64,000 bases of DNA from Trypanosoma brucei (lineage: Eukaryota). Position 1 is the first letter of the stretch. Each line of letters starts with the position of its first letter. This document shows positions 43,000 to 60,686 of this stretch, piece after piece. The notes below the pieces were generated by a model that ran no database searches, had not been told where the DNA came from, and was given only the letters and a program-made list of their open reading frames with translations. The translations under genes and the position numbers were made by a program. Location: NCBI GenBank assembly GCA_000002445.1, contig CP000067.1, positions 800,001-864,000 of the forward strand, read 5' to 3'.

Positions 43000-45900
43000 A
43001 GCAGCTTCCGTCACATTTCGGATTGCCTTTTAACGGCTGGAAATCAGTTTCCAACCAGCAGGCTCATTCTGTAAATTCGCGCTGGGAAGCTTACATCCGC
43101 TTCTTCTATGCGAACACAACAATATACTTTCAAAATAACTACTCACTGTGAAAGTATCATATTTTACTGTTTTTATGTCGTCCCACTGAAGGAGTTTGGT
43201 GTATACATGAAGCATCCGCCGCAACGACAGCTGAAATAACACCTTTTCTCCACGCGAACGCCATTGAATATGGGTTGCCTAGAGGACTGGACGGAACAAC
43301 GGGAAGTACGTGTACACGGCGTCTGGAGCTCGTAAAAAATTAAATGGAATAGTTATACTTGTATTTATTTCAACGGTTAAGAAGATTGATCGTTATGGTA
43401 AAAGTATGGAAAGAAGTAAAAATAAGGTAGCGTTGAATGAGGAGTCGTGAAGGGGATGAAAATGAAAGAATGCTCCAACTCGCAGACTTTATTCTCACTA
43501 ACTAGATCCGCTTTACCGTATATTTCAATGTAGTATAAGAGTGTTATTCTTCCGCGAGGTGAGTGTGAGATTTGTAAAGGTGAGCATCCCCTCACGCTGT
43601 TGGTACAGAGCCATCGGTGTCGGAAGCGGCTGCTGCCATATATCCGCGGAATGTGAATGACCTCCAGGAAACAGTAGAAGCCACCAGAAAGGAAGTAAAG
43701 TGAGATTTTCCCATGATAATCCTAGAATCAACGCTAGCCCTTGGTTTCTCACAAGTTTGTATCTTTTTTTTTCCTTTATCGTCTTGTTACGTTTTGCAAT
43801 TCACCCTTTTTTTTCGAGCCTCTCCTTAAACTTTTTTTTCAAGAACCTTTCTCGTTTCTTATTTAAATAATTATTAGAGTTTATATCCTGGATACCTTCA
43901 TGAAGTTCTTTTGCGTCCCTTTTTGAAACCTATGTGCATGGCACCGTTGTAATGTTTCACAAATCCTGTTGCATTCCATGCGATTGAGATTCATATCTTC
44001 CCTGGAGGCGTCAGAAATTGCAGAGTAATGGTGAGTTGAGTTTACCGTTAGGGGGAGGCCAAATGACTGTTCGCACCCTGTCATCAGGGAGACATGGCAG
44101 CTCACCGGCTGTTGGTTGTTGGGGTAACGGGGGAAGTGGAAACGATATTGGCTCCCTGATGTGGGAACCGATATCTTTGTTGTCCCTTGCACGCTCTTGC
44201 ATGTTCCCGTGGGCGTGTAGGGACAACTCCTGTTGTGGAGAAGACATCAGAGGCAACTGTAATTCACCTACTGGCGTATGGTAAGGGACTGTCTCTTCAA
44301 ATTTTTTGGGGGGAAAAAGGAAGGCTTCTTTTGCGTTTTGAAGGGGACATACATCCACGCGACGAAGAAGTGAAATGCAAAATGATGCCTGTATTTCCGG
44401 AACATTGATATAGCAAACCCTTCTAGGGGTTGACGAGTGTCAAAATCGGCAGAAAATAGCACAGGTAGAATGCAAGGCTCGTAACAAAATGGAAACTGGA
44501 AGAGTGTCAGTTAAACCGAAACTCGCTCAGGAGTAGTGGAACACACTCGTGTCAATATTTTTCTGTGGCCAAATCTGGAATCACCTGACCACTACTGGAA
44601 GGTTGCATGGAAGAGATAGTTTGAAGGTTTGCAGAAAGGCAATGGAGTAGCAATTCGACGAAGGAGGAAACTTAAATACCCCACATATCACGCGGAATGC
44701 TGCCTTGGAATAGGATTCCGCAGAATATGAGGGATAAATGTTATTGCCGCCTGAAGGAATAATAGTCACTTATAGGGATAGGGGTTTACGATGGGAATTA
44801 GGCAGTTCCTTCAGCTGTTGGAAGTTTTGAAGCAAATAGACAAGACAGCAAAAACAATGAACTTCCTGAGGAATCAGAGCAGGCAATGCAAAAGGCACTG
44901 ACCGAAGCGCAGAGTAGAACACGATACAAATGTAGATGGTGCGATTATTAGCGTGTTCATGTGTCGGGGCCCATTCTGCACACAAGGAACAAACACTCGG
45001 TGGAAGTTGGAATGAAAAAAGATACAAATGATAAAGCATCTCCGGCATCAAAGACAGCTCCAAAGACCCTCCAACGCTCGCAGTACAAAATGCGTGCAAC
45101 AAAGTGACCTCACTGAACTCATGCAGCGGAAAGGCGAATGCAAAATAGGAAAAAAAGCACAACACTGTAAAAAGTGGGTACTACTCATCTTCCCTAAAAC
45201 CGTCACAACACCCCTCCCCAGGAAGCGCTGCGTAGAGAAAGCGGTCGAAAATGCGGCAAACAGATGGTTGCCGTTTCGCATGCAACTGGCACGTTTCCAT
45301 GCAAGCTATTTCAACCAAAGGATTTGGAGCTAAACACAGAGGAGCGTCAACAGACTCAAGATAACTGTCAAAGGAATTCACACTGAAACGACCATGGGTT
45401 GGTTCAACACAAAAAAACACGCTCTTAATTAACTCTATAAGATTCTTTCGCATTCCACAGTTTCTCACGTCTCCACTGACTTGTTTCCTCTCTACGAAAA
45501 AGCAGCTCTACTTGTTTGCTACACGTATCTAAAGGGATACTGACACTTTTTTGAAACGTGTTCATCGCCTCATATCGCTTATCTTCAGACTGTTCCCACA
45601 AAGGAGCTGAAGAGCTTAATAAAAATAATAAAAATATGTTCGCATTCATACCATCAAACCCCAATAACGGAAAACATTGAAGAAAAGAATTTCCCTGCAG
45701 TTACTGATATAACATGAAGACCAACAAAAGAACTTACTCAACACTCCATAGATGGTATGTAATTAACATGCACCCAGAAACATACGCAGCCGATAGATAA
45801 TAGAAGGATCGAAATAAGTCCTCAAAATATATGCGATACAGCCTCCACTTTTTTTTTGACCTTCGCCTACGCACAAACCGCTATAAAATTGCTATGTTCC

Positions 45901-47179
45901 TTTTGAGTCGACAATTATTTTGCGTTTCTGTCAGCGCATATATCGATCTTTTCAAAAACTTTCAAACAATGCGTACAATCCTCCCCACCTAGGCAATTGC
46001 AACCAAATTTTACCAACCACCTTTACCACATATTTTGCCGAGAAAATACCCCGTGATTTGATTTTTCGTTAAATTTTTCGCCATGGAAAAGTGCATTTGT
46101 TGCTTTTCTTCGCTTCATTAATTTTACCACTTACTCTAGTAGTGTGTTTCAGGACCTCCAATAATTTGCTGCTATCGTTTATTTTGTTGGAGAATTTCTC
46201 TTCGCTAGATAAAACTTTACTGAAGGTTTTGAACGTTGTCAGTAAATCTGGCTTCTGCGGTGCACAAGCGCCGTATATTTATTTTTTTCATAAGTGCGTG
46301 CCTCAGAAATAGCACTTCCCTGGCTCAGTAATGGGACAACCACGCCCCTGTTGACTTTATTTTGAAGCTTTCTCTTACTACATCTCGGAGTAAGTTTCTT
46401 TCCCTCATGAGCTCATAAATTTCCACCACTGGTTCTTTCTCTTTTCTAGAGATGTCATTTTCACACGTCAAACCAGCTGTGATGACCTCAGATGTTCTAT
46501 TTTTTATTTTCAGTGTGGTCCCAAGGTCTCTTTCATGTAGTGAAGTTCCGGAATTGGTCTTTTATGGCTTTCATCTGTCTTTGTTCACTTCTTTTTTCAC
46601 TTTGTTTCTGCGAGTCACATATTCCAACCGTTGTCACTATGTTTTGTTAGCTCCTTGGTAGTATGTCTGTTCTGACCCACAGTAATCTGGCACTTCTTTC
46701 TTTCCATCCGTTCCATAGTGTTCATATAACCTCACCTTCGTCGTCGCAGACAAAACCATCATTTGCTCTTGATCACCTTCTTTGTACACGTAACGTTCTA
46801 TTTTCTCCCCCTTGCCATACACACGCAAATACGCAAAAATGGAGAGAAAAGTATACATCCTTGCAACCTGAACTCCCTTGTTTACCTATAACTTCAACAT
46901 AGTTCGGTCTTTTCTCGATCCACTGTATCCCCTTCTGAAAAAAAGACAAAGCATATGAGCGTACATGCTTCGTATCAAACGAAAACTCAAACTGAAGCAC
47001 GTGTGTGACCATGCATGCTCTCGCGTGATATTTAGTATCGTATACCTGTGCTACTAAGAAAATATAAAGATGCGCGCAAAGAGGAAAGGGGGTGTCTATG
47101 ACAATAGTGGCTCTGAAGATGAAGCTTAAAAAGGGAAGTAACACAAACGAGTGGAAACTGTATTCACACATTCTTGATA

Positions 47180-48109
47180 TTATACTGAAGACGCCATAAG
47201 ACTACTGAAAAGGGAATGGAGTTTGTCAGAGAGGGTGTCAATTCTGGAAGCACGTTCCGACAGCTTAGAAAGCATGACTTCAATTTCTGAGGATACATCA
47301 TTTATTTCTTTGAGGTGAGGAAGAAAAGACTTGAAAACTCTTGTTACGTTCACATCTTCTACCAGGCCGTATCTATTCGCAAGGACCTTGTCCCTACCCA
47401 AATTACCCCTTATTCCCCTGTGTTTGAAGATGTGTCCATGGGAAGTGGACACCGAATCAACTCTGTCAGCCAGTTTTCTTCCTCCAGTGCTATACGCCGT
47501 TCCATTGTGAAACCTCAAGTCGACGTGCTCGTCCCTGCTGCTGTCAAATTCGGTAATTATATCAGAAACGTCCCTTCCAGTTAAGGTTCCATCACACGTG
47601 ACTTGTATCCCATTATTCCTACAAAAGCCATGTGAATTATTCAGCATGCGCACTGCCTCCGATCCAACTCTGTACATCTCCTCCATTGTGGCTGCATACC
47701 TGGTTCCGGTTCTTACAACATCCATTGCCTTTTCCTCCATATAAGAAACACTAAGATCGAATTTCTTCCGTAAGTAGCTTTCACCTTCGAAAACACTCTC
47801 CATCTCATTTAATATTTCCTTCATTTTATCACCCTTCTCTTTTTTCATAAATGGTTTTCCGCGTAGGAATAATTCTCTCCACGCTGCATTCTGTTCTTCT
47901 GCCGAATACCTCTTCTCATACACCTCCTCTGCATGTACTCTAGTTCTTAAAAGTAGATCCTCCGTCACATTAATCATCCAATTAAGCTTCTTCACGACAC
48001 AGTCAATTTGTTTAAGGGTTGAGAGTGCTTCTTTATCAGTCTCCTGCATTCGAGAATCCACCAAGACAACAGAAATTGCAGCAAACACTACCGGAACTAT
48101 CCTCACCAT
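47180..48109 (-). CDS. array unit 1, 'A'-type secreted protein: signal peptide, ~310 aa, several N-glycosylation sequons, no C-terminal hydrophobic/GPI-type tail. The ORF opens at 48187.
   Basis: Paralog of 49729-50658, 52260-53204 and 54814-55740. Shares 'IDCVVKKLNWMINVTEDLLLRTRVHAEEVYEKRYSAEE'. Confidence 0.7.
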   Translation of the reverse strand: MVRIVPVVFAAISVVLVDSRMQETDKEALSTLKQIDCVVKKLNWMINVTEDLLLRTRVHAEEVYEKRYSAEEQNAAWRELFLRGKPFMKKEKGDKMKEILNEMESVFEGESYLRKKFDLSVSYMEEKAMDVVRTGTRYAATMEEMYRVGSEAVRMLNNSHGFCRNNGIQVTCDGTLTGRDVSDIITEFDSSRDEHVDLRFHNGTAYSTGGRKLADRVDSVSTSHGHIFKHRGIRGNLGRDKVLANRYGLVEDVNVTRVFKSFLPHLKEINDVSSEIEVMLSKLSERASRIDTLSDKLHSLFSSLMASSV

Positions 48110-48254
48110 CCCAAGCACTTGTACCACGTAAAAGAGAACTACAGAAAAATACACGTTCTTTAAGAGAAGCACCACACACACACACACGCTAGTAGCGTGA
48201 AACTTACAATTGTAAAAATATTTTAGAAAATTACTAACATTTCCCCACCTATTT

Positions 48255-49373
48255 CTAAAACGGTACCAAGACGCACAAAAGCAACGCTACCCATGGTAGA
48301 GTTTGTTGAAACTTCACCACACCATTATTATCTTCACTATAATTATCATTCCATGGAGAATCCTTCGCGTTTCCTAATGTTTCCGTAAGTTCATTGGTCC
48401 TTTCCTTCATTTTAACAATACTTCTGACTTTTTCTTCAAGTTCCAGAAGCAACCTATCGAGTACAGCTCGTTGAGCTGTGATGGAGGTGTTTCCTGCAGA
48501 TATCTTTATGACGCTGGCACTCAGCAGATCGATTAGTTCCTGAAATTCTTCTCCAATAGAACTGAAGTTTGCCATAAGTCTGTCATTCTGTGTGTAAAAG
48601 AGGCCACCAGAAAGTTCATTGATAAAGGGCTTCTTCCCTTTTGTGTACGGCTGGTATGTCGTCGTGATATAGCATCCATAAACAGCATCGGCACCTTGAT
48701 CTCCTGCATTTCCCATAGTCAAACTGAGTTCTGTATTAAGAGGATTTTCATACTCAGCAAGGCCACCCTCGCTGTGCTGTGGTGGCTCAACTGTGCAGTC
48801 TCTGGGAACACTGCCGCGTTTACCACCTCTTATGCAATCGCCAGTTGCCCCTCCATCCACCACAAGACAGCAATTTCCATATCCTAGTGCTGCATGGTGG
48901 AAAACTTCCACCATATCCTTAATCCAGTACGCGTACGAGTCAGACATATTCAGAAGGTTCCACGATGGCAACCTCATAGCCCGCAGTGAAGTATTCATGT
49001 TTTTAATGCTTTTTTTTAACTCCAATAGTGACTCTTCCGTTTCAATCAACAACTTTGCCACCTCATTCACTCTTTTACCTCCATCTGGAATTACTTCTTT
49101 CAGAACATCCACTAAAATTGTTTTTGTTCGAACACGTGCACTGTAGTGAGCTACAATTTTTTCACAGTCTTCCACTATTTTCTCCCCGAATTTCATATTA
49201 TGTGTCACATTGTTCCTCAGTTCCCTCAGCTTCCTAACTATACTACAGATGGCATTTGCATCACTTTGTGTCAGTGCCTTGCCCTTACCCTTTTCATCAC
49301 CCTCCGGTCCACTGTTAGCACATGCCACCACCAGAAAACTAAACATAATCACCACTCCTCCAACTGAAATCAT
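48255..49373 (-). CDS. array unit 1, 'B'-type surface glycoprotein: signal peptide 'MISVGGVVIMFSFLVVACA', ~375 aa, C-terminal hydrophobic GPI-type tail 'WVALLLCVLVPF'. The ORF opens at 49439.
   Basis: Paralog of the B copies at 50780, 53338 and 55871. Cys pairs such as 'CCLVVDGGATGDC' and many NxS/T sequons. Confidence 0.7.
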   Translation of the reverse strand: MISVGGVVIMFSFLVVACANSGPEGDEKGKGKALTQSDANAICSIVRKLRELRNNVTHNMKFGEKIVEDCEKIVAHYSARVRTKTILVDVLKEVIPDGGKRVNEVAKLLIETEESLLELKKSIKNMNTSLRAMRLPSWNLLNMSDSYAYWIKDMVEVFHHAALGYGNCCLVVDGGATGDCIRGGKRGSVPRDCTVEPPQHSEGGLAEYENPLNTELSLTMGNAGDQGADAVYGCYITTTYQPYTKGKKPFINELSGGLFYTQNDRLMANFSSIGEEFQELIDLLSASVIKISAGNTSITAQRAVLDRLLLELEEKVRSIVKMKERTNELTETLGNAKDSPWNDNYSEDNNGVVKFQQTLPWVALLLCVLVPF

Positions 49374-49728
49374 ATTATCACCTTCATACACAAAACAAGC
49401 AAAAAGGAGCTTTGAAAGCATGTGCTTCTTATTCCCCATATCATACTGTTATTCAAGTAAAGACAAATCTTCGCTGACACATTATCAAGGCACCCAAAAA
49501 CATGATATCGCAATGCGACCACACGTAGTCGGCCAGAAGCAGCAATAGCATATAAACACACATTCATATTTGCACATGCACATTCATTTCATGGTTATTG
49601 GACGGTTATTTTATGGTTATTTGCAAGAGGAGGGTGCAGTGAGAGTGTTAATACTGCTGACAGTTGTTGAGGCACAGGGTGTAAAAAGAGAAGGTGAGCG
49701 AAAGAGGCGTGTGTTCTCTTTTTCATTT

Positions 49729-50658
49729 TTAAGCTGTGGATATGGTGATGCTGCTGAAGATTGACTGGAGTTCCTTTTCGAGAGCGTCGATTCTGGAAGT
49801 TTGTTCCAACAGCTTGGAAGGCGTGGCTTCAATTTCGGAGATGATGTCGTTGATTTCTCTTAGAGGTGTGACAAACAACTTGAGAAGCTCTGATGCATTC
49901 ACCTTTTCTACCGAGCGAAGTTTATTCGTTTGGACGTTGTCTTTACCCAAATTGTTCCTTATTCCTCTGTGCTTGAGGACGAGCCCAAGGGAGGTGGACG
50001 CCGTATTGACTTTATCGGCCAATTTGTTTCCCCCATGGCTCTGAAACCCTCCACCGGTAAATGACAAGTCCATATAATCAGCGTCGCTGTCGAAATCGCC
50101 AACAATACCGGAAATATCTTTCCCAACAAAAGTTGTCCCGCACTTGACGTATGCACCATTATCCCCACAATAGCCATGCGACTTATTTACAATACATACT
50201 GCCTCTAATCCAACTCTGTACATCTCCACCATTGTGGCTGCATACCTGGTTCCGGTTCTTACAACATCCATCACCTTTTCCTCCAGATAAGAAACATTAA
50301 GGTTAAATTTCTTCCGTAAGTAGCTTTCACCTTCGAAAACACTCTCCATCTCATTTAATATTTCCTTCATTTTATCACCCTTCTGTTTTTTCATAAATGG
50401 TTTTACGTACACGAATAATCGTTCCCAGGCTGCGTATCTTTCCTCCGCCGAATACCTCTTCTCATACACCTCCTCTGCATGCACTCTAGTTCTTAAAAGT
50501 AGATCCTCCGTCACATTAATCATCCAATTAAGTTTCTTCACGACACAGTCAATTTGGTTAAGAGTTGTCAGTGACTCGTCGTTGTCCGCTTCTGGTGACA
50601 TGTTCTCTGCCAACACAACCCAAACTACAAAAAGCATCACTAGAAGTATCCTTATCAT
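49729..50658 (-). CDS. array unit 2, 'A'-type secreted protein (no GPI-type tail)
   Basis: Paralog of the A family. Signal peptide 'ILLVMLFVVWVVLA'. Confidence 0.7.
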   Translation of the reverse strand: MIRILLVMLFVVWVVLAENMSPEADNDESLTTLNQIDCVVKKLNWMINVTEDLLLRTRVHAEEVYEKRYSAEERYAAWERLFVYVKPFMKKQKGDKMKEILNEMESVFEGESYLRKKFNLNVSYLEEKVMDVVRTGTRYAATMVEMYRVGLEAVCIVNKSHGYCGDNGAYVKCGTTFVGKDISGIVGDFDSDADYMDLSFTGGGFQSHGGNKLADKVNTASTSLGLVLKHRGIRNNLGKDNVQTNKLRSVEKVNASELLKLFVTPLREINDIISEIEATPSKLLEQTSRIDALEKELQSIFSSITISTA

Positions 50659-50779
50659 CCTATAAACTTATTCCACACAAAATCGAACTACAGAAAATAA
50701 TGCCCCTTTCCGGAAAGAGACCACACCGCTAGTAACATGAAGCTGTTATTAAAAATATTTTATAAAATTACTCACTTTC

Positions 50780-51904
50780 TCAACTATTTCCAAATACAAA
50801 TGGGAGAAGAAGCAGAGCCACTCCTAGCAGAGTTTGCTGAACCCTTGCTACACTGTCACTCTCATTACTCTCTTTATCATTCCAATGAATATGTTTCACT
50901 ATTCCTAGTGTTTCTGTAAGTTCATTGGTTGTTTCCTTTTTTTCCAGAATATATCTGACTCTTTCTTCAAGTTCCAGAAGCAACCTATCGAGTACAGCTC
51001 GTTGAGCTGTGATGGAGGTGTTTCCTGCAGATATCTTTATGACGCTGGCACTCAGCAGATCGATTAGTTCCTGAAATTCTTCTCCAATAGAACTGAAGTT
51101 GGCAACGACGTTGTTATTCTGTGTGTAAAAGAGTCCTCCTGAAAGTTCATAAATGAGAGATTTCCTCCCCGAAGTGTAAGACTGATGTGTCGTCGTGATA
51201 TAGCAGCCATACTCCGAGTAGTTTCTGTAGTTTCCTGCATTTCCCATCGTTAAAGTGAGTCCTTCATCAAGAGGGTTTTTGTACTCAGCAAGGCTACCCT
51301 CGCTGCGCTGTAGCGGCTCAACTATGCAGTCTCTGGGAACACTGCCGCGTTTACCGTTCTTCATGCAATCGCCCGTTGCCCCTCCATCCACCACAAGACA
51401 ACAACTTAGAGTGCTAAGTGCCGCGTGGGCAAAACTCTCCACCGTGTCCTTAATCCAGTACGCGTACGAGTCAGACATATTCAGAAGGTTCCACGATGGC
51501 AACCTCATATATCCAAGCGACGAATGCATTTGCGCAACTAAATTTCTTAATTCATCTTTCAGTACTTTCATATCGCTCAAAAGCTTTATTATTTCAGTTA
51601 AAATTTCATCTTCTTCCGGAATTACTTCTTTCAAAACATCCACTAAAATTGTTTTTGTTTGAACACGTGCACTGTAGTGAGCTACAATTTTTTCACAGTC
51701 TTCCACTATTTTCTCCCCGAATTTCATATTATGTGTCACATTGTTCCTCAGTTCCCTCAGCTTCCTAACTATACTACAGATGGCATTTGCATCACTTTGT
51801 GTCAGTGCCTTGCCCTTACCCTTTTCATCACCCTCCGGTCCACTGTTAGCACATGCCACCACCAGAAAACTAAACATAATCACCACTCCTCCAACTGAAA
51901 TCAT
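50780..51904 (-). CDS. array unit 2, 'B'-type GPI-type surface glycoprotein. The ORF opens at 51970.
   Basis: Its N-terminal 100 aa are identical to B1 and B3. The C-terminal hydrophobic tail is 'LLGVALLLLPFVF'. Confidence 0.7.
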   Translation of the reverse strand: MISVGGVVIMFSFLVVACANSGPEGDEKGKGKALTQSDANAICSIVRKLRELRNNVTHNMKFGEKIVEDCEKIVAHYSARVQTKTILVDVLKEVIPEEDEILTEIIKLLSDMKVLKDELRNLVAQMHSSLGYMRLPSWNLLNMSDSYAYWIKDTVESFAHAALSTLSCCLVVDGGATGDCMKNGKRGSVPRDCIVEPLQRSEGSLAEYKNPLDEGLTLTMGNAGNYRNYSEYGCYITTTHQSYTSGRKSLIYELSGGLFYTQNNNVVANFSSIGEEFQELIDLLSASVIKISAGNTSITAQRAVLDRLLLELEERVRYILEKKETTNELTETLGIVKHIHWNDKESNESDSVARVQQTLLGVALLLLPFVFGNS

Positions 51905-52259
51905 ATTATCACCTTCATACACAAAACAAGCAAAAAGGAGCTTTGAAAGCATGTGCTTCTTATTCCCCATATCATACTGTTATTCAAGTAAAGACAAATC
52001 TTCGCTGACACATTATCAAGGCACCCAAAAACATGATATCGCAATGCGACCACACGTAGTCGGCCAGAAGCAGCAATAGCATATAAACACACATTCATAT
52101 TTGCACATGCATATTCATTTCGTGGTTATTGGACGGTTATTTTATGGTTATTTGCAAGAGGAGGGTGCAGTGAAAGTGTTAATACTGCTGACAGTTGTTG
52201 AGGCACAGGGTGTAAAAAGAGAAGGTGAGCGAAAGAGGCGTGTGTTCTCTTTTTCATTT

Positions 52260-53204
52260 TTAAGCTGTGGATATGGTGATGCTGCTGAAGATTGACTGGA
52301 GTTCCTTTTCGAGAGCGTCGATTCTGGAAGTTTGTTCCAACAGCTTGGAAGGTGTGGCTTCAATTTCGGAGATGATGTCGTTGATTTCTCTTAGAGGTGT
52401 AATAAAGGACTTGAATATCCTTGGTGAGTGAACAAACTCTACCAAGCCGTTTCCATTCGTGATGACCTTGGATTTACCCAAGTTACTTCTTATTCCTCTG
52501 TGCTTGATGATGTGCCCATAAGAGGTGGACGCCGCATTAACTTTATCGGCCAACTTGCTGCCTCCGTGTCCGCTCTGCGCTACTTTCTGTGTTTTCCTGT
52601 TTTGGAATGACAAGTCGATGTGTTCAGAGCTGTTTTCCAACACTCTAACGACGTCAGAAATGTCTTTCCCAACAAAAGTTGTCCCGCACTTGACGTATGC
52701 ACCATTATCCCCACAATAGCCATGCGACTTATTTACAATACATACTGCCTCTAATCCAACTCTGTACATCTCCACCATTGTGGCTGCATACCTGGTTCCG
52801 GTTCTTACAACATCCATCACCTTTTCCTCCAGATAAGAAACATTAAGGTTAAATTTCTTCCGTAAGTAGCTTTCACCTTCGAAAACACTCTCCATCTCAT
52901 TTAATATTTCCTTCATTTTATCACCCTTCTCTTTTCTCACAAAGTTTTTTACGTATACGTATAATTCTTTCCATGTTGTGAACCTTTCCTCTAGTGAATA
53001 CTTTTTCCCATACACCTCCTCTGCATGCACTCTAGTTCTTAAAAGTAGATCCTCCGTCACATTAATCATCCAATTAAGTTTCTTCACGACACAGTCGATT
53101 CTTTTTAGAGTAAAGCATGGTTCTCTATAACTCACCTGTGTTCTTCCAGCATATGGCAACACAAAGAAAACGACGGTAACGGTCACTTGACTTATCTTAA
53201 TCAT
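52260..53204 (-). CDS. array unit 3, 'A'-type secreted protein
   Basis: The central block and C-terminus are identical to A2. Confidence 0.7.
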   Translation of the reverse strand: MIKISQVTVTVVFFVLPYAGRTQVSYREPCFTLKRIDCVVKKLNWMINVTEDLLLRTRVHAEEVYGKKYSLEERFTTWKELYVYVKNFVRKEKGDKMKEILNEMESVFEGESYLRKKFNLNVSYLEEKVMDVVRTGTRYAATMVEMYRVGLEAVCIVNKSHGYCGDNGAYVKCGTTFVGKDISDVVRVLENSSEHIDLSFQNRKTQKVAQSGHGGSKLADKVNAASTSYGHIIKHRGIRSNLGKSKVITNGNGLVEFVHSPRIFKSFITPLREINDIISEIEATPSKLLEQTSRIDALEKELQSIFSSITISTA

Positions 53205-53337
53205 TCCACACTCTTACTTCAGGAAAAACTAAGCCAGTTCGAAGAGCGTACCTTTTTTGGAAGGGCACATCGCTTACACGCTAGTAGTAATAAGCTGTCA
53301 ATTGCACAAATATTTTAGAAAATTACACACTTTCCAC

Positions 53338-54459
53338 CTATTTCCAAAATACAGAAAAGACGAAAAGAAGCAGAGCCACTTCTGATAGATTTGGTTTCTT
53401 GCTCATACCATCACTCTCATAACTCTCATTATCATACCAGGAAACATCTTCTATGCTTCCTAATCTTTTCGTAACATCCATGACTCTCTTTTTCCTTTTA
53501 AGGATATCTCCAACTTCTTCCTCAAACCTCAGTAACAAGCTGTGGAGTATAGTTCGTTGACCTGTGATAGATGTGTTCCACGTGAAAATGTCGCTGATAC
53601 TAGTGTTCAGTTGATCGATTAGTTCCTGAAATTCTTTTCCAACAGAACTGAAGTTGGCAACGACGTTGTTATTCTGTGTGTAAAAGAGTCCTCCTGAAAG
53701 TTCATTTATAAAGGATTTCTTTGTATTAAAGCCACCTGCGGTGCTTGTGATGTAGCAACCGTAACTATTTGGGGTTTTACCGTAGTTTCCTGAATTTCCC
53801 ATAGTCAAACTGAGTTCTGTATTAAGAGGATTTTCATACTCAGCAAGGCTACCCTCGCTGTGCTGTGGTGGCTCAACTATGCAGTCTCTGGGAACTATTC
53901 CTCGTTTTCGGTCAAAGGGACAATCTTCCATTGACCCTCCATCTACCACAAGACAGCAACTCCCGGGGCTAAACGCTGCATAGTGAAAAAAATCCACCAT
54001 ATCCTTAATCCAGTACGCATATGAGTCCGATATATTTACAAGGTTCCACGATGGCAACCTCATAGCCCGCAGTGAAGCATTCATGCTCGTAATTGTCTTC
54101 CCTAATCCATCCCTCAGTTCCCCCATCTTCTCCAGGATTCTTTCCATCCCACTGAAACTTGACTTTTCTTCTGCCATTACTTTCTCCAACACGCTCACCA
54201 GCATTTTCTTAGACATAACTTTCGCGCCGTAGTAACTTTTCACGTCTTCAGCCTCGTCCACTATTTTCTCCCCGAATTTCATATTATGTGTCACATTGTT
54301 CCTCAGCTCCCTCAGCTTCCTAACTATACTACAGATGGCATTTGCATCACTTTGTGTCAGTGCCTTGCCCTTACCCTTTTCATCACCCTCCGGTCCACTG
54401 TTAGCACATGCCACCACCAGAAAACTAAACATAATCACCACTCCTCCAACTGAAATCAT
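53338..54459 (-). CDS. array unit 3, 'B'-type GPI-type surface glycoprotein. The ORF opens at 54525.
   Basis: Paralog of the B family. C-terminal tail 'VALLLFVFSVFW'. Confidence 0.7.
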   Translation of the reverse strand: MISVGGVVIMFSFLVVACANSGPEGDEKGKGKALTQSDANAICSIVRKLRELRNNVTHNMKFGEKIVDEAEDVKSYYGAKVMSKKMLVSVLEKVMAEEKSSFSGMERILEKMGELRDGLGKTITSMNASLRAMRLPSWNLVNISDSYAYWIKDMVDFFHYAAFSPGSCCLVVDGGSMEDCPFDRKRGIVPRDCIVEPPQHSEGSLAEYENPLNTELSLTMGNSGNYGKTPNSYGCYITSTAGGFNTKKSFINELSGGLFYTQNNNVVANFSSVGKEFQELIDQLNTSISDIFTWNTSITGQRTILHSLLLRFEEEVGDILKRKKRVMDVTKRLGSIEDVSWYDNESYESDGMSKKPNLSEVALLLFVFSVFWK

Positions 54460-54813
54460 ATTATCACCTTCATACACAAAACAAGCAAAAAGGAGCTTTG
54501 AAAGCATGTGCTTCTTATTCCCCATATCATACTGTTATTCAAGTAAAGACAAATCTTCGCTGACACATTATCAAGGCACCCAAAAACATGATATCGCAAT
54601 GCGACCACACGTAGTCGGCCAGAAGCAGCAATAGCATATAAACACACATTCATATTTGCACATGCATATTCATTTCATGGTTATTGGACGGTTATTTTAT
54701 GGTTATTTGCAAGAGGAGGGTGCAGTGAAAGTGTTAATACTGCTGATGCTTGTAATTAACATTGGCTCAAAAGGAATTATGTTCACGCATTTTTTTTATT
54801 ATACTGAAGACGC

Positions 54814-55740
54814 TCAAAGGCTGTTAAAGAGGGATTCAAGTTTCTTTTCGAGAATAGAAAACTTGTGAACACGTTCCGACAGCTTGGAAGGTGTGGCTTC
54901 AACTTCGGAGGTGAGATTACCGACTTCCCTTAGATGTGTGACAAACAACTTGAGAAGCTTCGCTGCACTCACGTGTTCTACCAAGTCGCGTTCATCCATG
55001 AGAACTCTGGCCTTTCCCAAACTATTACCTATTCCTCTGTGCTTGATGACACGTCCAAACGTGGTCGATACATTATGAACTCTATCAGCCAGCTTGTTTC
55101 CCCCTTTACTCCAGTGACCTCCGTTCTCAAACCTTAGATCTATATTTTCTTCAGTGCCGCTACCAAATTCAGCAACGATAATAGATAAATTTCCCCCAGA
55201 GAAGGCTCTCTCGCATGTAACATTGGCTTCATAAATTTCACAACTTTTTGGTACTTCTTTTCCAGAACGCACAGCTTCCAATCCAACTCTGTACATCTCC
55301 TCCATTGTGGCTGAATACCTGATACCGACTCTTACAATAGTCATCATTTTTTTTTCAAAGTAAGAAACATTAAGGTTAAAGTTTTTCTGCAAGTAGCTTT
55401 CAGTTTCAACGATTCTCTCCATCTCATTTAATATTTCCTTCATTTTATCACCCTTCTGTTTTTTCATAAATGGTTTTACGTACACGAATAATCGTTCCCA
55501 GGCTGCGTATCTTTCCTCCAGCAAATACTTCTTTTTATATACCTTTTCTGCATGCACTCTAGCTCTTAAAAGTAGATCCTCCGTCACATTAATCATCCAA
55601 TTAAGCTTCTTCACGACACAGTCAATTTGCTTAAGAGTTGAGAGAGATTCATCTCCGTGTGTTGTTTCCGCTATAACCCCCCAAAAAACAACTAGAACAA
55701 CTAAAGTGACAGCAAACACCACCTGAATCATCCTCATCAT
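54814..55740 (-). CDS. array unit 4, 'A'-type secreted protein
   Basis: Paralog of the A family. Shares 'ERYAAWERLFVYVKPFMKKQKGDKMKEILNEME' with A2. Confidence 0.7.
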   Translation of the reverse strand: MMRMIQVVFAVTLVVLVVFWGVIAETTHGDESLSTLKQIDCVVKKLNWMINVTEDLLLRARVHAEKVYKKKYLLEERYAAWERLFVYVKPFMKKQKGDKMKEILNEMERIVETESYLQKNFNLNVSYFEKKMMTIVRVGIRYSATMEEMYRVGLEAVRSGKEVPKSCEIYEANVTCERAFSGGNLSIIVAEFGSGTEENIDLRFENGGHWSKGGNKLADRVHNVSTTFGRVIKHRGIGNSLGKARVLMDERDLVEHVSAAKLLKLFVTHLREVGNLTSEVEATPSKLSERVHKFSILEKKLESLFNSL

Positions 55741-55870
55741 ATGTACCTATTCCACGAAAAGCGAATCACAGGAAAACGTGTAGCCTTTAGTAAGGGTACA
55801 ACACACGCGGTAGTAGAACATAATTGTCGTCTGTATAAATATTTTAGATCACTTACTTCTCCACATACTT

Positions 55871-56980
55871 TTAGAAGAATACCAGGAAGAATAGAAACAG
55901 ACTCACCCCTCGGAGGGTTGGTTGCGTCCCCATACCATCGCTATTCCCACTCTCGTTACCAAACCATGGAATGTTCTTCGTGCTACCTAATGCTTCCGTA
56001 ATTGCTTTGTTCTTTTCTTTCTCAAGGACATGTCTGATTTCTTTCTTCAGCTTAAGTAGCAAACCATCGAGTACAGCTCGTTGTCTTGTAATTGATGTGT
56101 TCCACGCGGAAAAATTGTTTGTGACTCTTCTTAGCGGATCGATTAGCTCCTGAAATTCCTTTCCAACAAAAGTGAAGTTGGCCATAAGTCTGTTATTCTG
56201 TGTGTAAAAGAGGCCACCAGAAAGTTCATAAATGAGAGATTTTTTCCCCCTGCTGTAAGTGTCATTTGTTGTTGTGATGAAGCAGCCACATAGCGGGTAT
56301 TCGCCTTCGTCCCCTGCATTTCCCATCGTTAAAGTGAGTCCTTCATCAAGAGGGTTTTTGTACTCAGCAAGGCCACCCTCGCTGCGCTGTGGCGGGTAAA
56401 TAGTGCAATCCGTGGGGACACTGCCGCGTTTACCACCTCTTATGCAATCTCCCGTTGCCCCTCCATCCACCACAAGACAACAATTCCCGCTTCCGAATGC
56501 TGTCTGGGCAAAGAGTTCTACCATATCTTTCACCCAGTACGCATACGAGTCAGACATATTTGTGAGGTTCCACATTTGCACACTCATGCACCCGAGTGAA
56601 GCGTTCACATTCGTAATACTTCTTTTCAACACCTGGATCGGCTCCTCCATATCACTCAGCAGCTTTCCCATCACGCTCAACTTTTCTCCTTCTTCAGGAA
56701 TTAGTTTTCCCAAAACCTTCACTAACATTTTCTTTGCTTCAACACGTGTGCTGTAGTAAGTAGCAACGTTTTCGCCATTGTCCACGATTTTTTCACCCAA
56801 TTTCATATTACGCGTCACGTTATTTGCCAACTCCCTCAACTGTTTGACCACATTGCAAATGGCATCTGCATCACTTTGCGTCAGCGCCTTGCCCTTACCC
56901 TCGATGTCACCCTCCGCTTGACCGTAAGCACATACCACCACTAAACAAGCCACAACCATTCCCCTTTTGAGTGGCATCAT
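55871..56980 (-). CDS. array unit 4, 'B'-type GPI-type surface glycoprotein, the most diverged B copy. The ORF opens at 57019.
   Basis: Signal peptide 'MMPLKRGMVVACLVVVCAYGQA' and C-terminal tail 'LRGVSLFLFFLVFF'. Confidence 0.7.
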   Translation of the reverse strand: MMPLKRGMVVACLVVVCAYGQAEGDIEGKGKALTQSDADAICNVVKQLRELANNVTRNMKLGEKIVDNGENVATYYSTRVEAKKMLVKVLGKLIPEEGEKLSVMGKLLSDMEEPIQVLKRSITNVNASLGCMSVQMWNLTNMSDSYAYWVKDMVELFAQTAFGSGNCCLVVDGGATGDCIRGGKRGSVPTDCTIYPPQRSEGGLAEYKNPLDEGLTLTMGNAGDEGEYPLCGCFITTTNDTYSRGKKSLIYELSGGLFYTQNNRLMANFTFVGKEFQELIDPLRRVTNNFSAWNTSITRQRAVLDGLLLKLKKEIRHVLEKEKNKAITEALGSTKNIPWFGNESGNSDGMGTQPTLRGVSLFLFFLVFF

Positions 56981-57092
56981 ATTATCCCCTCCTTCCAGAA
57001 ACGCAAGAAAGGCAAACAAATTGTGGATCCCTACGTGCGTATTCAGTCGGAGAACAGATCTTGATTACAATAAGTAGAACATTTGGGCTATA

Positions 57093-58325
57093 TTACGAAA
57101 ACACCAACAAAACAAAAATGCTCACCATTAAATCGAAATGGGCATCACCCTCCGTGTCAACATCCAAATTTTCTGCCTTGCCCCAGATATCTATGTTTCC
57201 TCCAAGTTTGTACTCAAGAAACATTTCCTCAGCGTCATGCTGTAAATCTTCCAACTCGTAAATATGGGAGTTTGCTTCACTTTCATACTTCTCCATGTCT
57301 TCCATGTTCTTTGTGGCATTGGTGAGACGATTGTGCCACGGTATGCCGCCATGGGATAAGGTGTGTTTGTAATTCACACACGTTGTTCCGGGTCTGTGGC
57401 CATCACATAGAAATGTTTCATTACTCGTATCATTCACGTGGCCAAATACGCCTTCCACCTGAAACTTGTCCTGCCTCATGTTAACAGATTTATCAAACTC
57501 CTCCAATGCAGCCTTTAACAGCTTTGAGTTGGATGCAATGTGCCTGTACACGCATCCGCGCTTTACCACTTGCCAAGCATCTTTGAGTGTCATTGATGAA
57601 TTAACCTCACATTTCTCTTCGGCCAAGGCGCACTCATTGCTCATGCCCGTCCACTTATTTTTTTCTGGTCGCCTCAAGTAGGTCCTGCAGGGCGAACTAT
57701 GCCCGTTGTAATAGTAGCTGCTGCTGTTCGCCTCGTCTTTCGCCTCTCCCACACATACACAAAAAAAGTCGTTAACAAGTGTTTTTCCAGTTTCATTACC
57801 GTTGCTTCCACAGCTTTCCAGAGCAGATTCATTGCTGTTGAACAGTAAACTTTTATTAGTTTCCATAATATCGTCAATGGGTCTGTTGGTCTTATGTGCC
57901 TCATCCACTAAATCACCATACACAGCTTTCATCATGCTCTCCTCAGCCTTACTGCTCTCCCGCATCGCCCTCTTTCTATTCCTGTCAATCTCTCCCTTCA
58001 CCGCTTTTGCTCTTTTGTATAGTTTCTCAATCCCTTCACGCGCCTTTTGGCTCACAGAAGTTTCTTTTCCGTTCGCTCTCGCCTCACTCACCATTACCTC
58101 GAACCTCTTCATAATCTCATCTTCCTTCTCACGGTTTCTAAATTCCGGCCTTGGCACCTTTGCTTGAGTGATCCTGTAAATCTTACAAAGGATCTCAAAC
58201 TCTCCGGTGTTGTGTTGGTAATCAGTAATGTTGAAAACACCCTTCTGTTGACCCTGACTTCCTCTTATTGATCCCCATAAAAGAGCAACCAACAATAGCA
58301 CCCCAGCGCAACCACGTCTCTTCAT
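57093..58325 (-). CDS. VSG-like / ESAG-like GPI-type surface glycoprotein (410 aa) with a signal peptide and C-terminal hydrophobic tail. Contains the motif 'NDFFCVCVGE'.
   Basis: N-terminal 'GVLLLVALLWGSIRG', C-terminal 'LMVSIFVLLVFS', a Cys-rich central region, and many sequons. Confidence 0.65.
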   Translation of the reverse strand: MKRRGCAGVLLLVALLWGSIRGSQGQQKGVFNITDYQHNTGEFEILCKIYRITQAKVPRPEFRNREKEDEIMKRFEVMVSEARANGKETSVSQKAREGIEKLYKRAKAVKGEIDRNRKRAMRESSKAEESMMKAVYGDLVDEAHKTNRPIDDIMETNKSLLFNSNESALESCGSNGNETGKTLVNDFFCVCVGEAKDEANSSSYYYNGHSSPCRTYLRRPEKNKWTGMSNECALAEEKCEVNSSMTLKDAWQVVKRGCVYRHIASNSKLLKAALEEFDKSVNMRQDKFQVEGVFGHVNDTSNETFLCDGHRPGTTCVNYKHTLSHGGIPWHNRLTNATKNMEDMEKYESEANSHIYELEDLQHDAEEMFLEYKLGGNIDIWGKAENLDVDTEGDAHFDLMVSIFVLLVFS

Positions 58326-58435
58326 AATTTCCTATTACAACCAAATGGGAAGCAAATATCAACAACATGCCACGCAGCAGCAGTCATTTAGGAAAATGCG
58401 GAAGCTGGGAAAAGCTAAAAATATAACACGGAAAG

Positions 58436-59716
58436 TTAAGCGACAAAGGCAGTCAGCGCCATCATTGCTAAAACAGTCAAAGATATTGAAAAGCCGGCCC
58501 CATCCTCTTCCACCTCGTTCACTTCACTCTCCATCATTAAGTGTTCCAAATTCAAGTTAATCTTTGCTGCTGCACTTTTCATATTCTCCGCTAATTTCCA
58601 CAGCCTTCCAAGCAAAACCTTTGCCTCCTTATTGTGCCTTTCCATTTCCACCAGGTACTTCTCCGCATCCAGCAACCTCAGCTGCCACTCAATTCCCTTC
58701 TGCGTCAGAAGTCTATACGCATAATTCACGCACATTTGGTCATTCTTCCCCGTGCATATGTTTTCGCTGCGGTCAAAAACACCCGTATGTATTTTTTTTG
58801 CTCTCCCAAACACGTAGGTCCGAAATCCCTCCGATTCTTTCATGTTCATGATTATATTCTCCCTCTGCCTTCCAAGAAGCTTATTGAACTCCCTCACTGC
58901 ATCTTGGATTTTTTCTGGCGTTATCAATTTCAAATTTTCATTTTTTGGACAGGCTTCATCCTTTATCTTAAACCAGCCGGGGCCAAAAGCCACATCACTT
59001 CCATCATACGACACATTTTTCCACAGTTTCTTTCTACCCGGCCCCTTGATACTTTTGTGACAAACGGTCTCATTATTCTCTTCTCCAACGCACAAGCAAA
59101 AAAAGTCCCCCACGAGCGAACGCCCAGCCATGGCATCCTCAGTCGAGGGATGATACCCAGCTCCGCACGTTTCCTCTGCGGAGTTTCCTATTAAAGTGTC
59201 TCCGGTGTGCACCGCAAACTTTTCAAACTCCTCCTTCTCCATCAGCCTCCCAGCATTCGCCCCATAAACGACTTGCGCCATTCTTTCGAGTGCAAATTTC
59301 CTTGACACATTCGCCAGGCGCCGTTCCTCTCTTATTCCACTCACGAGTATGGTTGCCTTTTCCGCTAGTTTTATTAACTTCTCATGTGTTACCCTCCACC
59401 GAATAATATCATTTGCACGATGCATACTCATCTTAGCGGCCCCACTATTGTTAACTGTTCCTTTCCTCCTTTCCATAGCTTCTTTATACAAGGAATCCTT
59501 CACGTATGTCGCTTTCACAAACATCTGTAGCCTGTCGATGATACTCGTTAGATTCGCAGGCTCTTCCATTATTTTCTCTGGTTCCCCCTCCGCCAACCTC
59601 AATATCTCACACATTTGGTTGAACTCTTTTTCATTCACTAACTTTGAATCCTCTCCACACACCAAGTGGAAGGCACCAAAGGCCGTTAACAAGAATGTCA
59701 CTATGATTTCCTTCAT
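58436..59716 (-). CDS. second VSG-like GPI-type surface glycoprotein (about 426 aa from the 'MKEIIVTFLLTAFGAF' start). Contains 'GDFFCLCVGE'. The ORF opens at 59767.
   Basis: Signal peptide and C-terminal 'ISLTVLAMMALTAFVA'. Shares a Cys motif with the neighbouring gene. Confidence 0.65.
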   Translation of the reverse strand: MKEIIVTFLLTAFGAFHLVCGEDSKLVNEKEFNQMCEILRLAEGEPEKIMEEPANLTSIIDRLQMFVKATYVKDSLYKEAMERRKGTVNNSGAAKMSMHRANDIIRWRVTHEKLIKLAEKATILVSGIREERRLANVSRKFALERMAQVVYGANAGRLMEKEEFEKFAVHTGDTLIGNSAEETCGAGYHPSTEDAMAGRSLVGDFFCLCVGEENNETVCHKSIKGPGRKKLWKNVSYDGSDVAFGPGWFKIKDEACPKNENLKLITPEKIQDAVREFNKLLGRQRENIIMNMKESEGFRTYVFGRAKKIHTGVFDRSENICTGKNDQMCVNYAYRLLTQKGIEWQLRLLDAEKYLVEMERHNKEAKVLLGRLWKLAENMKSAAAKINLNLEHLMMESEVNEVEEDGAGFSISLTVLAMMALTAFVA

Positions 59717-60614: not shown

Positions 60615-60686
60615 TTCCGGTGCCGGGGATCGAACCCGGGTCTAGCGGGTGAGAGCCGCTTGTTCTAGCCACTATACCACACCGGA
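60615..60686 (-). tRNA. tRNA-Glu (anticodon CTC)
   Basis: Acceptor TCCGGTG/CACCGGA, anticodon stem AGCGG/CCGCT with loop CTCTCAC, T-arm CCGGG-TTCGATC-CCCGG, and T7 after the 3' end. Confidence 0.8.

What the first reader, a model, noticed from the sequence alone, without database searches (positions are those of the whole stretch)
48255..56980. Patchwork (mosaic) block-sharing among B copies, consistent with segmental gene conversion and diversification
Blocks are shared in non-nested combinations. B1, B2 and B3 have identical first ~100 residues. B1 and B3 share '...GGLAEYENPLNTELSLTMGN...', while B2 and B4 share '...LAEYKNPLDEGLTLTMGNAG...'. B2 and B3 share 'LFYTQNNNVVANFSS', while B1 and B4 carry the '...RLMANF...' version. 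B1 and B2 share the block 'FSSIGEEFQELIDLLSASVIKISAGNTSITAQRAVLDRLLLELEE', which B3 and B4 have diversified. Between the shared blocks the sequence is highly divergent, with many non-conservative changes. A single duplication tree cannot produce this pattern. It points to repeated segmental conversion, the mechanism trypanosomes use to diversify surface antigens. The variable blocks also suggest exposed, possibly ligand- or immune-facing surfaces.
Basis: seen in the sequence. Interest (0 to 1): 0.7.

Follow-up and report, generated by a model that had tools for sequence, protein, structure and literature searches.

The report
Recombining surface-protein gene array, Trypanosoma brucei
The four "B" genes are copies of an ESAG11-related surface-protein gene in a known tandem array on Trypanosoma brucei chromosome 4; they really are patchworks made by gene conversion between repeats, but recombination in this array was already reported in 2010.

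Summary
The window is T. brucei TREU927 chromosome 4. The region holds four tandem 2.5-kb units, Tb927.4.3200-3270. Each unit carries a B gene (ESAG11-related, "Fam3", signal peptide plus GPI signal) and an A gene ("Fam4", signal peptide, no GPI signal).

Different pairs of copies share tracts of 50-450 nt at 100% nucleotide identity. These tracts sit inside sequence that is only 50-75% identical, and they also occur in the intergenic DNA and in the A genes.

Sites supporting the three possible four-copy groupings are strongly clustered (z = 7-9; no permutation reached the observed value). The B coding sequence needs at least 4 switches of grouping, and the whole unit needs at least 10. Segmental gene conversion and unequal crossing-over between repeats is therefore supported.

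- dN/dS is 0.3-0.6, and no window exceeds 1.
- The variation is old (dS 0.35-1.0).
- The locus is chromosome-internal and weakly expressed.

Jackson et al. 2010 (Table 2, array 22, Tb927.4.3220) already reported PHI p<0.001, 10 LRT and at least 9 GARD breakpoints, and no isoforms shared with T. b. gambiense.

More interesting is a ~12-kb block that is about 25% divergent between strains while its outer flanks are 99% identical. The A protein is also predicted to have a haptoglobin-haemoglobin-receptor-like three-helix bundle.

The parts
48255..49439 (-). B1 = Tb927.4.3210, ESAG11-related (Fam3). The functional start is probably the second ATG at 49376.
   Evidence: ORF. Exact match to XP_844471 of TREU927. 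Gene numbering from Carnes 2015. A polypyrimidine tract plus AG lies just upstream of the second ATG.
50780..51970 (-). B2 (Tb927.4.3230 by position), ESAG11-related.
53338..54525 (-). B3 (Tb927.4.3250 by position), ESAG11-related.
55871..56980 (-). B4 = Tb927.4.3270, the Fam3 example gene. It is the edge copy and the most divergent.
   Evidence: It has the lowest identity to the other copies.
47180..48109 (-). A0 = Tb927.4.3200, Fam4: signal peptide, no GPI signal.
49729..50658 (-). A1 (Tb927.4.3220, the sample identifier of array 22 in Jackson 2010), Fam4.
52260..53204 (-). A2 (Tb927.4.3240 by position), Fam4.
54814..55740 (-). A3 = Tb927.4.3260, the Fam4 example gene.
49130..49580 (-). 5' conversion tract: 451 nt, 100% identical to 51661-52111 (unit 2). 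Of this, 359 nt (49222-49580) are also identical to 54308-54666 (unit 3). The tract spans upstream non-coding DNA and the first ~90-103 codons of B.
   Evidence: Unit 4 is only 43-50% identical over the same columns.
48431..48569 (-). B1/B2 conversion tract: 139 nt, 100% identical to 50962-51100. It encodes the FSSIGEEFQ...LELEE block.
   Evidence: 56 sites that are polymorphic among the four copies lie inside it. The other pairs are 69-73% identical.
48708..48763 (-). Two-type block (LAEY-E/K-NPL...). The B1 tract is identical to B3 53794-53849. The alternative type is shared by B2 51234-51294 and B4 56313-56373.
   Evidence: Grouping (1,3|2,4) over alignment columns 952-1115.
51089..51150 (-). 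B2/B3 conversion tract: 62 nt, identical to 53644-53705 (LFYTQNNNVVANFSS). B1 and B4 carry the other type.
   Evidence: Grouping (1,4|2,3) is supported by 9 of 9 informative sites over columns 1126-1162.
50117..50384 (-). A1/A2 conversion tract: 268 nt, 100% identical to 52663-52930. A further 93 nt (49729-49821) equals 52260-52352.
   Evidence: a run of 90 polymorphic sites against a permutation maximum of 28.
50342..50446 (-). A1/A3 conversion tract: 105 nt, 100% identical to 55415-55519.
   Evidence: a run of 27 polymorphic sites against a permutation maximum of 15.
57093..58325 (-). Upstream neighbour, an ESAG2-like VSG_B-domain gene. It is not part of the repeat and marks the sharp boundary of the hypervariable block.
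   Evidence: Pfam VSG_B 5.8e-27. Named ESAG2 in T. equiperdum. dS to T. equiperdum is 0.07.
58436..59716 (-). VSG-related (VR) gene, Tb927.4.3290.
   Evidence: Pfam VSG_B 4.5e-36..
44840..57100 (.). Strain-hypervariable block: the array plus ~2.3 kb of downstream non-coding DNA.
   Evidence: Tiles of 400 nt are 70-86% identical to T. b. gambiense and T. equiperdum, or have no hit, inside the block. Just outside it they are 97-99% identical. The downstream DNA is not derived from the repeat units.
42080..42800 (.). Left arm of a 722-bp inverted repeat, 99.2% identical to 61012-61732. Together with the tRNA clusters it brackets the locus.
   Evidence: tRNAs at 42652-43000 and 60615-61160.

Best explanation
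This is the Tb927.4.3200-3270 tandem array of T. brucei TREU927 chromosome 4. It consists of four head-to-tail 2.5-kb units on the minus strand, each carrying two genes. B is ESAG11-related (CSP family Fam3) and has a signal peptide and a GPI signal. A belongs to Fam4, has a signal peptide but no GPI signal, and is predicted to be a three-helix bundle.

The units descend from anciently diverged sequence types. Misaligned pairing of the repeats during homologous recombination repeatedly copies short tracts (about 50-450 nt) from one unit into another; this is non-reciprocal gene conversion. Occasional unequal crossing-over changes the number of units. The result is copies that are 100% identical in patches, with a different partner in each patch, and 50-75% identical elsewhere.

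Shown here: the mosaic, its statistical support, its extent over both genes and the spacers, the variation in copy number between strains, and purifying to relaxed selection on both genes.

Inferred: that gene conversion rather than only crossing-over made the short internal patches, that the proteins are on the cell surface, and that the process has any adaptive value.
For: Identity and family:
- Exact matches to TREU927 chromosome 4 proteins.
- Fam3 and Fam4 assignment, with signal peptide and GPI status, from CSP Table S1.
- A profile of the B copies hits ESAG11 at E = 3.6e-8 among 1.8 billion representatives; hhalign gives 96% probability.

Mosaic:
- Sliding-window identity falls from 100% to about 55% within a unit.
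- Exact tracts are shared by different pairs of copies.
- Informative-site clustering gives z = 7.1 for B, 3.7 for A and 8.6 for the whole unit. The GENECONV-like test was reached in none of 5,000 permutations for four of the six B pairs, gave p = 0.0008 for a fifth, and was reached in none for two A pairs.
- At least 4 switches of grouping are needed in B and at least 10 in the unit.

The same process in other assemblies:
- T. b. gambiense Ba and Bb share an exact 480-nt 3' tract next to sequence about 70% identical.
- T. equiperdum units b and c are 99.7% identical over 2262 nt.
- Copy number is 4, 2 and 3 units in the three genomes.

Both genes are real: dN/dS is 0.3-0.6.

Published: Jackson 2010 Table 2, array 22: PHI p<0.001, 10 LRT breakpoints, 9* GARD breakpoints, 0 shared isoforms.
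Against: With only four sequences per genome and dS up to 1.0, some conflicting sites are homoplasies, so the breakpoint counts are approximate. The A coding sequence alone gave only a weak PHI-like signal (p = 0.09), although its identical tracts are highly significant. Conversion cannot be separated from double crossing-over using sequence alone. I had no read-level data to confirm the TREU927 assembly across the identical tracts.
Confidence: 0.9

Rival explanations
1. The mosaic is an adaptive diversity generator, a small-scale version of VSG mosaic formation. Conversion would create new combinations of exposed epitopes or ligand-binding surfaces, and these would be favoured by host immunity or by differences between hosts.
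For: - The proteins have a signal peptide with or without a GPI signal.
- ESAG11 itself localises to the cell-body and flagellar membranes, but the copy tested was Tb927.1.5110, not this array.
- No isoform is shared between subspecies.
- The most variable part of A is the 162-262 insert, at the presumed membrane-distal end.
Against: - dN/dS is 0.3-0.6, with no window above 1.
- The non-coding DNA of the block is as divergent as the coding DNA.
- Transcript signal is low in all stages, and the locus appears to lack the chromatin marks of a typical RNA polymerase II start site.
- The locus is chromosome-internal, and all copies lie on one strand, so there is no expressed-copy versus silent-donor architecture.
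- The conserved part of B is the Cys-rich insert, not the bundle.
Confidence: 0.15
2. The mosaic is an assembly artefact: repeat units, or the two haplotypes of the diploid genome, were stitched together wrongly in the reference.
For: Tandem 2.5-kb repeats with identical tracts of up to about 450 nt are hard to assemble. TREU927 is diploid. T. b. gambiense arrays are known to be collapsed in places.
Against: Most switches occur within 50-140 nt, well inside a single Sanger read. Two independent assemblies, of other strains made with other methods, show the same kind of tract. T. b. gambiense and T. equiperdum agree with each other at 98-100%.
Confidence: 0.04
3. There was no recombination. The shared blocks reflect convergent or parallel selection on protein motifs, or simply uneven constraint along the gene.
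For: Some blocks conserved in all four copies do exist, for example SDSYAYW, CCLVVDGG and ELSGGLF.
Against: The pair-specific blocks are identical at synonymous sites and continue into non-coding DNA. Uneven constraint cannot make different pairs the closest relatives in adjacent segments.
Confidence: 0.01

Closest known systems
Recombining tandem gene arrays of T. brucei (Jackson 2007, BMC Evol Biol 7:54; Jackson et al. 2010, PLoS NTD 4:e658, Table 2, array 22 'Tb927.4.3220')
   Same: It is this very array. The 2515-site alignment equals the A+B unit. PHI p<0.001, 10 LRT and at least 9 GARD breakpoints, 3 versus 2 annotated copies, and 0 isoforms shared between T. b. brucei and T. b. gambiense. 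My tests reproduce this.
   Different: The paper gives only a table row. It does not map the tracts, does not note that the unit is a GPI+/GPI- gene pair, gives no dN/dS, and does not describe the divergence profile of the flanks. It counted 3 copies in TREU927, whereas four units are present (Carnes 2015).
ISG65 array on chromosome 2 (Tb927.2.3270-3320), the worked example of mosaic tandem surface-protein genes
   Same: A tandem array of helical-bundle surface glycoprotein genes with subspecies-specific recombinant copies.
   Different: ISG65 copies are far more similar to each other and share isoforms between subspecies. ISG65 has a known ligand (complement C3) and a transmembrane anchor.
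ESAG11 (expression-site-associated gene 11)
   Same: Significant but distant homology over about 260 residues, at 24% identity. Similar length. Signal peptide and GPI signal.
   Different: ESAG11 proper lies in telomeric expression sites or at other internal loci on chromosomes 1 and 11. The array copies were not detected or tagged in the surface proteome study.
ESAG6/ESAG7 transferrin receptor genes
   Same: Adjacent GPI+ and GPI- genes that are repeatedly recombined and vary between copies.
   Different: ESAG6 and ESAG7 are close paralogues of each other and VSG-like. A and B show no significant similarity to each other (hhalign probability 0.3%). Heterodimer formation has not been tested.
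VSG segmental gene conversion (mosaic VSG formation)
   Same: Short homology-guided conversion tracts between diverged paralogues produce mosaics.
   Different: A VSG mosaic is assembled from silent donors into one expressed telomeric copy during infection. Here all copies sit in one internal array, and the mosaics are germline and evolutionary.

Membership tests
Recombining tandem gene array of T. brucei (sensu Jackson 2007/2010) | At least 3 head-to-tail copies of the same gene or unit on one strand. | tested here: met
   Four units of about 2.53 kb, with all genes on the minus strand.
Recombining tandem gene array of T. brucei (sensu Jackson 2007/2010) | Statistically supported recombination among copies (PHI or breakpoint tests). 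| tested here: met
   PHI-like z = -8.9 for B and -10.9 for the unit. The GENECONV-like test was reached in none of 5,000 permutations for four B pairs. At least 4 and at least 10 switches of grouping. Published PHI p<0.001.
Recombining tandem gene array of T. brucei (sensu Jackson 2007/2010) | Subspecies-specific isoforms or differences in copy number. | tested here: met
   4, 2 and 3 units in TREU927, T. b. gambiense DAL972 and T. equiperdum. Cross-strain identity is 66-78%.
ESAG11 / CSP Fam3 | Significant sequence homology to ESAG11. | tested here: met
   hmmsearch E = 3.6e-8 to the T. b. gambiense ESAG11 protein. hhalign probability 96%, E = 2e-9, 257 columns.
ESAG11 / CSP Fam3 | N-terminal signal peptide and C-terminal GPI-addition signal. 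| tested here: inconclusive
   Hydrophobic N- and C-termini are visible in the sequences, and CSP Table S1 lists SP = y, GPI = y. No predictor was run here.
ESAG11 / CSP Fam3 | Location in a telomeric bloodstream expression site. | tested here: not met
   The locus is chromosome-internal, between housekeeping genes and tRNA clusters. The copies are therefore 'ESAG11-related', not ESAG11.
Trypanosome three-helix-bundle surface receptors (HpHbR / GARP / FHR / ISG65 / MISP fold) | An elongated three-helix bundle with an insert at one end. | tested here: met
   [not shown]
Trypanosome three-helix-bundle surface receptors (HpHbR / GARP / FHR / ISG65 / MISP fold) | The same fold for the B protein. 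| tested here: inconclusive
   [not shown]
ESAG6/7-type heterodimeric receptor | Adjacent GPI+ and GPI- subunit genes. | tested here: met
   B ends in a hydrophobic tail and A does not. They alternate with spacers of 121-145 nt.
ESAG6/7-type heterodimeric receptor | The two subunits are paralogues of each other. | tested here: not met
   hhalign of the B profile against the A profile: probability 0.3%, E = 0.24.
ESAG6/7-type heterodimeric receptor | The subunits form a complex that binds a host ligand. | not testable with these tools
   No multimer prediction or experiment was available.
VSG-type antigenic variation by segmental conversion | One expressed telomeric copy that receives tracts from silent donors during infection. 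| tested here: not met
   The array is internal and on one strand, with no telomeric context. Transcript signal is low and similar for the neighbouring genes.

The most novel reading that the evidence does not exclude
The 12-kb block is an ancient haplotype system kept in T. brucei by balancing selection, with at least two classes about 25% divergent: a 927-type and a gambiense/equiperdum-type. Each B-A pair would encode a two-chain surface receptor, GPI-anchored B plus anchorless A, both helical bundles. Its specificity for a host or vector ligand would differ between haplotypes, and gene conversion between units would shuffle the specificity-determining segments. If so, 'absence' of the array from Lister 427 and T. 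evansi in read-mapping studies would partly be failure to map a third divergent haplotype.
Probability: 0.12. Interest if true: 0.65.

Novelty: already known. Interest (0 to 1): 0.27.

Why it matters
The finding shows, at base-pair resolution, how a parasite surface-protein array evolves: old sequence types are kept and re-assorted in short patches. As a discovery it adds little, because this array is already on the published list of recombining T. brucei arrays.

The parts worth following up lie outside the finding:
- The locus is one of the most divergent regions between T. brucei strains. dS is 0.5-1.3 in the array, against 0.07-0.08 in the adjacent genes and about 99% nucleotide identity further out.
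- It pairs a GPI-anchored gene with an anchorless helical-bundle gene.
- It is bracketed by a near-perfect inverted repeat.

This could be a strain-specific receptor locus. It also means that read-mapping claims of 'absence' should be treated with caution.

Tried and rejected
- Pfam gave no family for A or B; only the two upstream genes hit VSG_B.
- Word-indexed protein searches found only the TREU927 and T. b. gambiense copies.
- Profile searches against PDB sequences gave nothing meaningful.
- A versus B profile-profile comparison was not significant, so I rejected 'A and B are paralogues like ESAG6/7'.
- Sliding-window dN/dS found no window above 1. PAML, GARD and RDP were not available, so I used permutation tests of my own.
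- A literature search on gene IDs .3230-.3280 found nothing.
- The ESAG11 protein localised by Gadelha 2015 is Tb927.1.5110, not an array member.
- The 2026 complement-screen preprint concerns Tb927.11.1470 and does not mention chromosome 4 genes.
- The 2.3 kb downstream of A0 is not a decayed repeat unit.
- A blastn run with a 97% identity filter missed the T. b. gambiense identical tract, probably because the alignment extended into divergent sequence. An exact-match search found it.
Full report
WHAT THE REGION IS. The window is from Trypanosoma brucei brucei TREU927 chromosome 4. The B and A proteins match TREU927 entries XP_844471-XP_844477 exactly, on a 1,590,432-bp record. All genes below are on the minus strand. 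Read 5' to 3' on that strand, the order is:
- a VSG-related gene (58436-59716) and an ESAG2-like gene (57093-58325), both with the Pfam VSG_B domain
- B4 (56980-55871) and A3 (55740-54814)
- B3 (54525-53338) and A2 (53204-52260)
- B2 (51970-50780) and A1 (50658-49729)
- B1 (49439-48255) and A0 (48109-47180)

Carnes et al. [quoted passage not shown] In the cell-surface phylome of Jackson et al. 2013, B is Fam3 (example Tb927.4.3270: ESAG11-related, signal peptide yes, GPI yes). A is Fam4 (example Tb927.4.3260: signal peptide yes, GPI no). Both are T. brucei-specific, with low microarray signal in all stages. tRNA clusters lie on both sides, at 42652-43000 and 60615-61160.

The identical N-terminus is 89 aa for B1/B2/B3 and 103 aa for B1/B2. 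The 'GG' before LAEYENPL is in B1 only.

The blocks are shared at nucleotide level too. In an alignment of the four whole units, pairwise identity in 100-nt windows swings between 100% and about 50%. The main exact tracts are:
- Units 1 and 2: 451 nt (49130-49580 = 51661-52111). Of this, 359 nt are also identical in unit 3 (54308-54666). The tract starts in non-coding DNA upstream of B.
- Units 1 and 2: 139 nt (48431-48569 = 50962-51100). The other pairs are 69-73% identical there.
- A two-type block, with units 1 and 3 identical over 56 nt and units 2 and 4 identical over 61 nt at the same position.
- Units 2 and 3: 62 nt (51089-51150 = 53644-53705).

The A genes show the same pattern. Units 2 and 3 share 268 nt and 93 nt, and units 2 and 4 share 105 nt. 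The mosaic is therefore a property of the whole 2.5-kb unit, not only of B.

STATISTICS. With four sequences, each informative two-state site supports one of three groupings. Those sites are strongly clustered by type:
- B coding sequence: 71 adjacent same-type pairs against 37.8 +/- 4.6 in 20,000 permutations (maximum 56; z = 7.1).
- Whole unit: z = 8.6.
- A coding sequence: z = 3.7.
- A PHI-like neighbour-incompatibility score gave z = -8.9 for B and -10.9 for the unit. For A alone it was only -1.4.

A GENECONV-like test, using the longest identical run among polymorphic sites, was reached in none of 5,000 permutations for four of the six B pairs and gave p = 0.0008 for a fifth. It was also reached in none for A1/A2 and A1/A3. 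A parsimony segmentation needs 5 segments in B, in the order 12|34, 14|23, 13|24, 14|23, 12|34. It needs 11 segments in the unit, and its cost is below every permutation.

Uneven constraint or convergent selection cannot explain this. The tracts are identical at synonymous and non-coding positions, and different pairs are closest relatives in adjacent segments.

OTHER GENOMES.
- T. b. gambiense DAL972 has two B-A pairs at the syntenic site. T. equiperdum has three, one B being frameshifted.
- T. b. gambiense Ba and Bb share an exact 480-nt 3' tract next to sequence about 70% identical.
- T. equiperdum units b and c are 99.7% identical over 2262 nt, which points to a recent unit duplication.

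These independent assemblies argue against an assembly artefact. They also show that unequal crossing-over changes copy number.

No TREU927 copy has an orthologue elsewhere. Cross-strain nucleotide identity is 66-78%, whereas the T. b. gambiense and T. equiperdum copies are 97-100% identical to each other. In places a TREU927 segment is closest to a T. b. gambiense segment rather than to any TREU927 copy; for example, B3 alignment columns 391-540 match T. b. gambiense Ba at 77-90%. The segment types therefore predate the strains.

SELECTION. Nei-Gojobori estimates give dS 0.35-1.0 and dN/dS 0.30-0.49 among the TREU927 B copies, and dS 0.29-0.90 with dN/dS 0.34-0.59 among the A copies. No 30-codon window has pN/pS above 0.86. 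Cross-strain values are dS 0.5-1.3 and dN/dS 0.21-0.43.

Both genes are therefore real coding genes under moderate constraint. This answers the suggestion in Jensen et al. 2009 that the 'hypothetical' ORFs might just be 3' UTRs. It also means there is no detectable signal of positive diversifying selection at this resolution. The variation is old and is being re-assorted and locally homogenised.

WHAT THE PROTEINS ARE.
- B: a profile of the B copies, searched against 1.84 billion representative proteins, finds only itself, a T. equiperdum fragment and ESAG11 (E = 3.6e-8). hhalign gives 96% probability and 24% identity over 257 columns. 'ESAG11-related' is therefore justified, but the relationship is distant.
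- A versus B: no significant similarity.
- Where the variation lies: in A, the insert 162-262 is the most variable mature part (mean pairwise difference 0.50) and the first half of helix 1 is the most conserved (0.17). In B, the most variable stretch is residues ~76-135, around the predicted helix 1/helix 2 turn (about 0.6), while the Cys-rich insert is conserved. If B has the usual topology, with the C-terminus at the membrane, that variable stretch is membrane-proximal. This does not favour antibody-driven variation, but it rests on secondary structure only.

WHAT IS ALREADY KNOWN. Jackson 2007 showed that mosaics and concerted evolution are widespread in T. brucei tandem arrays. Jackson et al. 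2010, Table 2, lists this array as number 22, 'Hypothetical protein, Tb927.4.3220, chr 4':
- 3 T. b. brucei and 2 T. b. gambiense copies
- 0 shared isoforms
- PHI mean 0.457, observed 0.285, p<0.001
- 6 sequences by 2515 sites; LRT 10 breakpoints; GARD 9* (a minimum, because the run timed out)

The 2515 sites equal the length of the A+B unit. In that table it is the only array with no shared isoform, and no further comment is made on it. I found no paper that maps the tracts, discusses the B/A pairing or models the proteins.

WHAT LIES BEYOND THE FINDING.
- Identity to T. b. gambiense and T. equiperdum is 99.3-99.8% at 62400-64000 and 94-99% at 57200-62400. It drops to 70-86%, or to no hit, from about 57100 to about 44840, then recovers to 90-97% at 43200-44800 and 95-99% further left.
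- The 2.3 kb of non-coding DNA downstream of A0 is as divergent as the genes, and it is not derived from the repeat.
- The flanking ESAG2-like and VR genes have dS 0.07-0.08. The reported genome average is 99.2% coding identity.
- This peak-and-decay profile is what a long-lived haplotype polymorphism would give. Differential loss of ancient paralogues, or introgression, are alternatives I cannot separate.
- Published 'absence' of the array from T. evansi and Lister 427 rests largely on read mapping and annotation against the TREU927 reference. At 25% divergence, reads would not map, so part of that 'absence' may be a divergent haplotype. T. equiperdum, for example, has three units.
- The locus is also bracketed by a 722-bp inverted repeat at 99.2% identity (42080-42800 versus 61012-61732).

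VERDICT. Segmental gene conversion plus unequal crossing-over in a tandem array is supported with high confidence. Adaptive diversification and surface exposure of the variable blocks are not shown. The core result is already in the literature, so novelty is 'already known' and interest is low to moderate. The residual value lies in the haplotype-level divergence and in the possible two-chain receptor.

Noticed in passing
window 42080-42800 and 61012-61732 (also 42920-42999 / 60774-60853): A 722-bp inverted repeat at 99.2% identity, plus inverted tRNA-Met copies, brackets the whole ~18-kb locus (array, ESAG2-like gene, VR gene). Both arms are also present in T. b. gambiense. It could mediate inversion of the locus; Carnes 2015 suspected an inversion here in T. 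evansi.
   Followed up: partly
window 44840-57100, with flanks out to 40800 and 64000: Divergence from T. b. gambiense and T. equiperdum peaks over the array (70-86% identity, some tiles with no hit) and decays outwards (90-98%, then above 99%). dS is 0.5-1.3 in A/B against 0.07-0.08 in the adjacent VSG-like genes. This is the profile of a deep, possibly balanced, haplotype polymorphism.
   Followed up: partly
window 49377-49439, 51908-51970, 54463-54525: The annotated 21-aa N-terminal extension of B1-B3 (MGNKKHMLSKLLFACFVYEGDN) contains a polypyrimidine tract followed by AG, just before the second ATG. It is probably a splice-acceptor/5' UTR region. The true start would then be MISVGG..., which matches the annotated start of B4.
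   Followed up: partly
[not shown]
   Followed up: yes
window 48110-48254, 50659-50779, 53205-53337, 55741-55870: The B-to-A spacers are only 121-145 nt. That space must hold the B 3' UTR, a polyadenylation site, and the A splice acceptor and 5' UTR. Pyrimidine-rich runs followed by AG lie 35-60 nt upstream of the A start codons.
   Followed up: partly
L001 12562-13739 and 12503-17292 (T. equiperdum): The middle B copy is split into two ORFs (199 + 207 aa) by a frameshift, which is either a pseudogene or a long-read indel error. Units b and c are 99.7% identical over 2262 nt, indicating a recent unit duplication.
   Followed up: partly
L002 8757-9990 (T. b. gambiense): In T. b. gambiense DAL972 the ESAG2-like gene next to the array is split into two ORFs (223 + 183 aa) and is not called as a gene. 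It is intact (410 aa) in TREU927 and T. equiperdum.
   Followed up: no
window 57093-59767: Two VSG_B-domain genes, an ESAG2-like gene and the VR gene Tb927.4.3290, sit immediately upstream of the array in the same orientation. Three kinds of surface-protein gene are therefore clustered between the tRNA genes.
   Followed up: no
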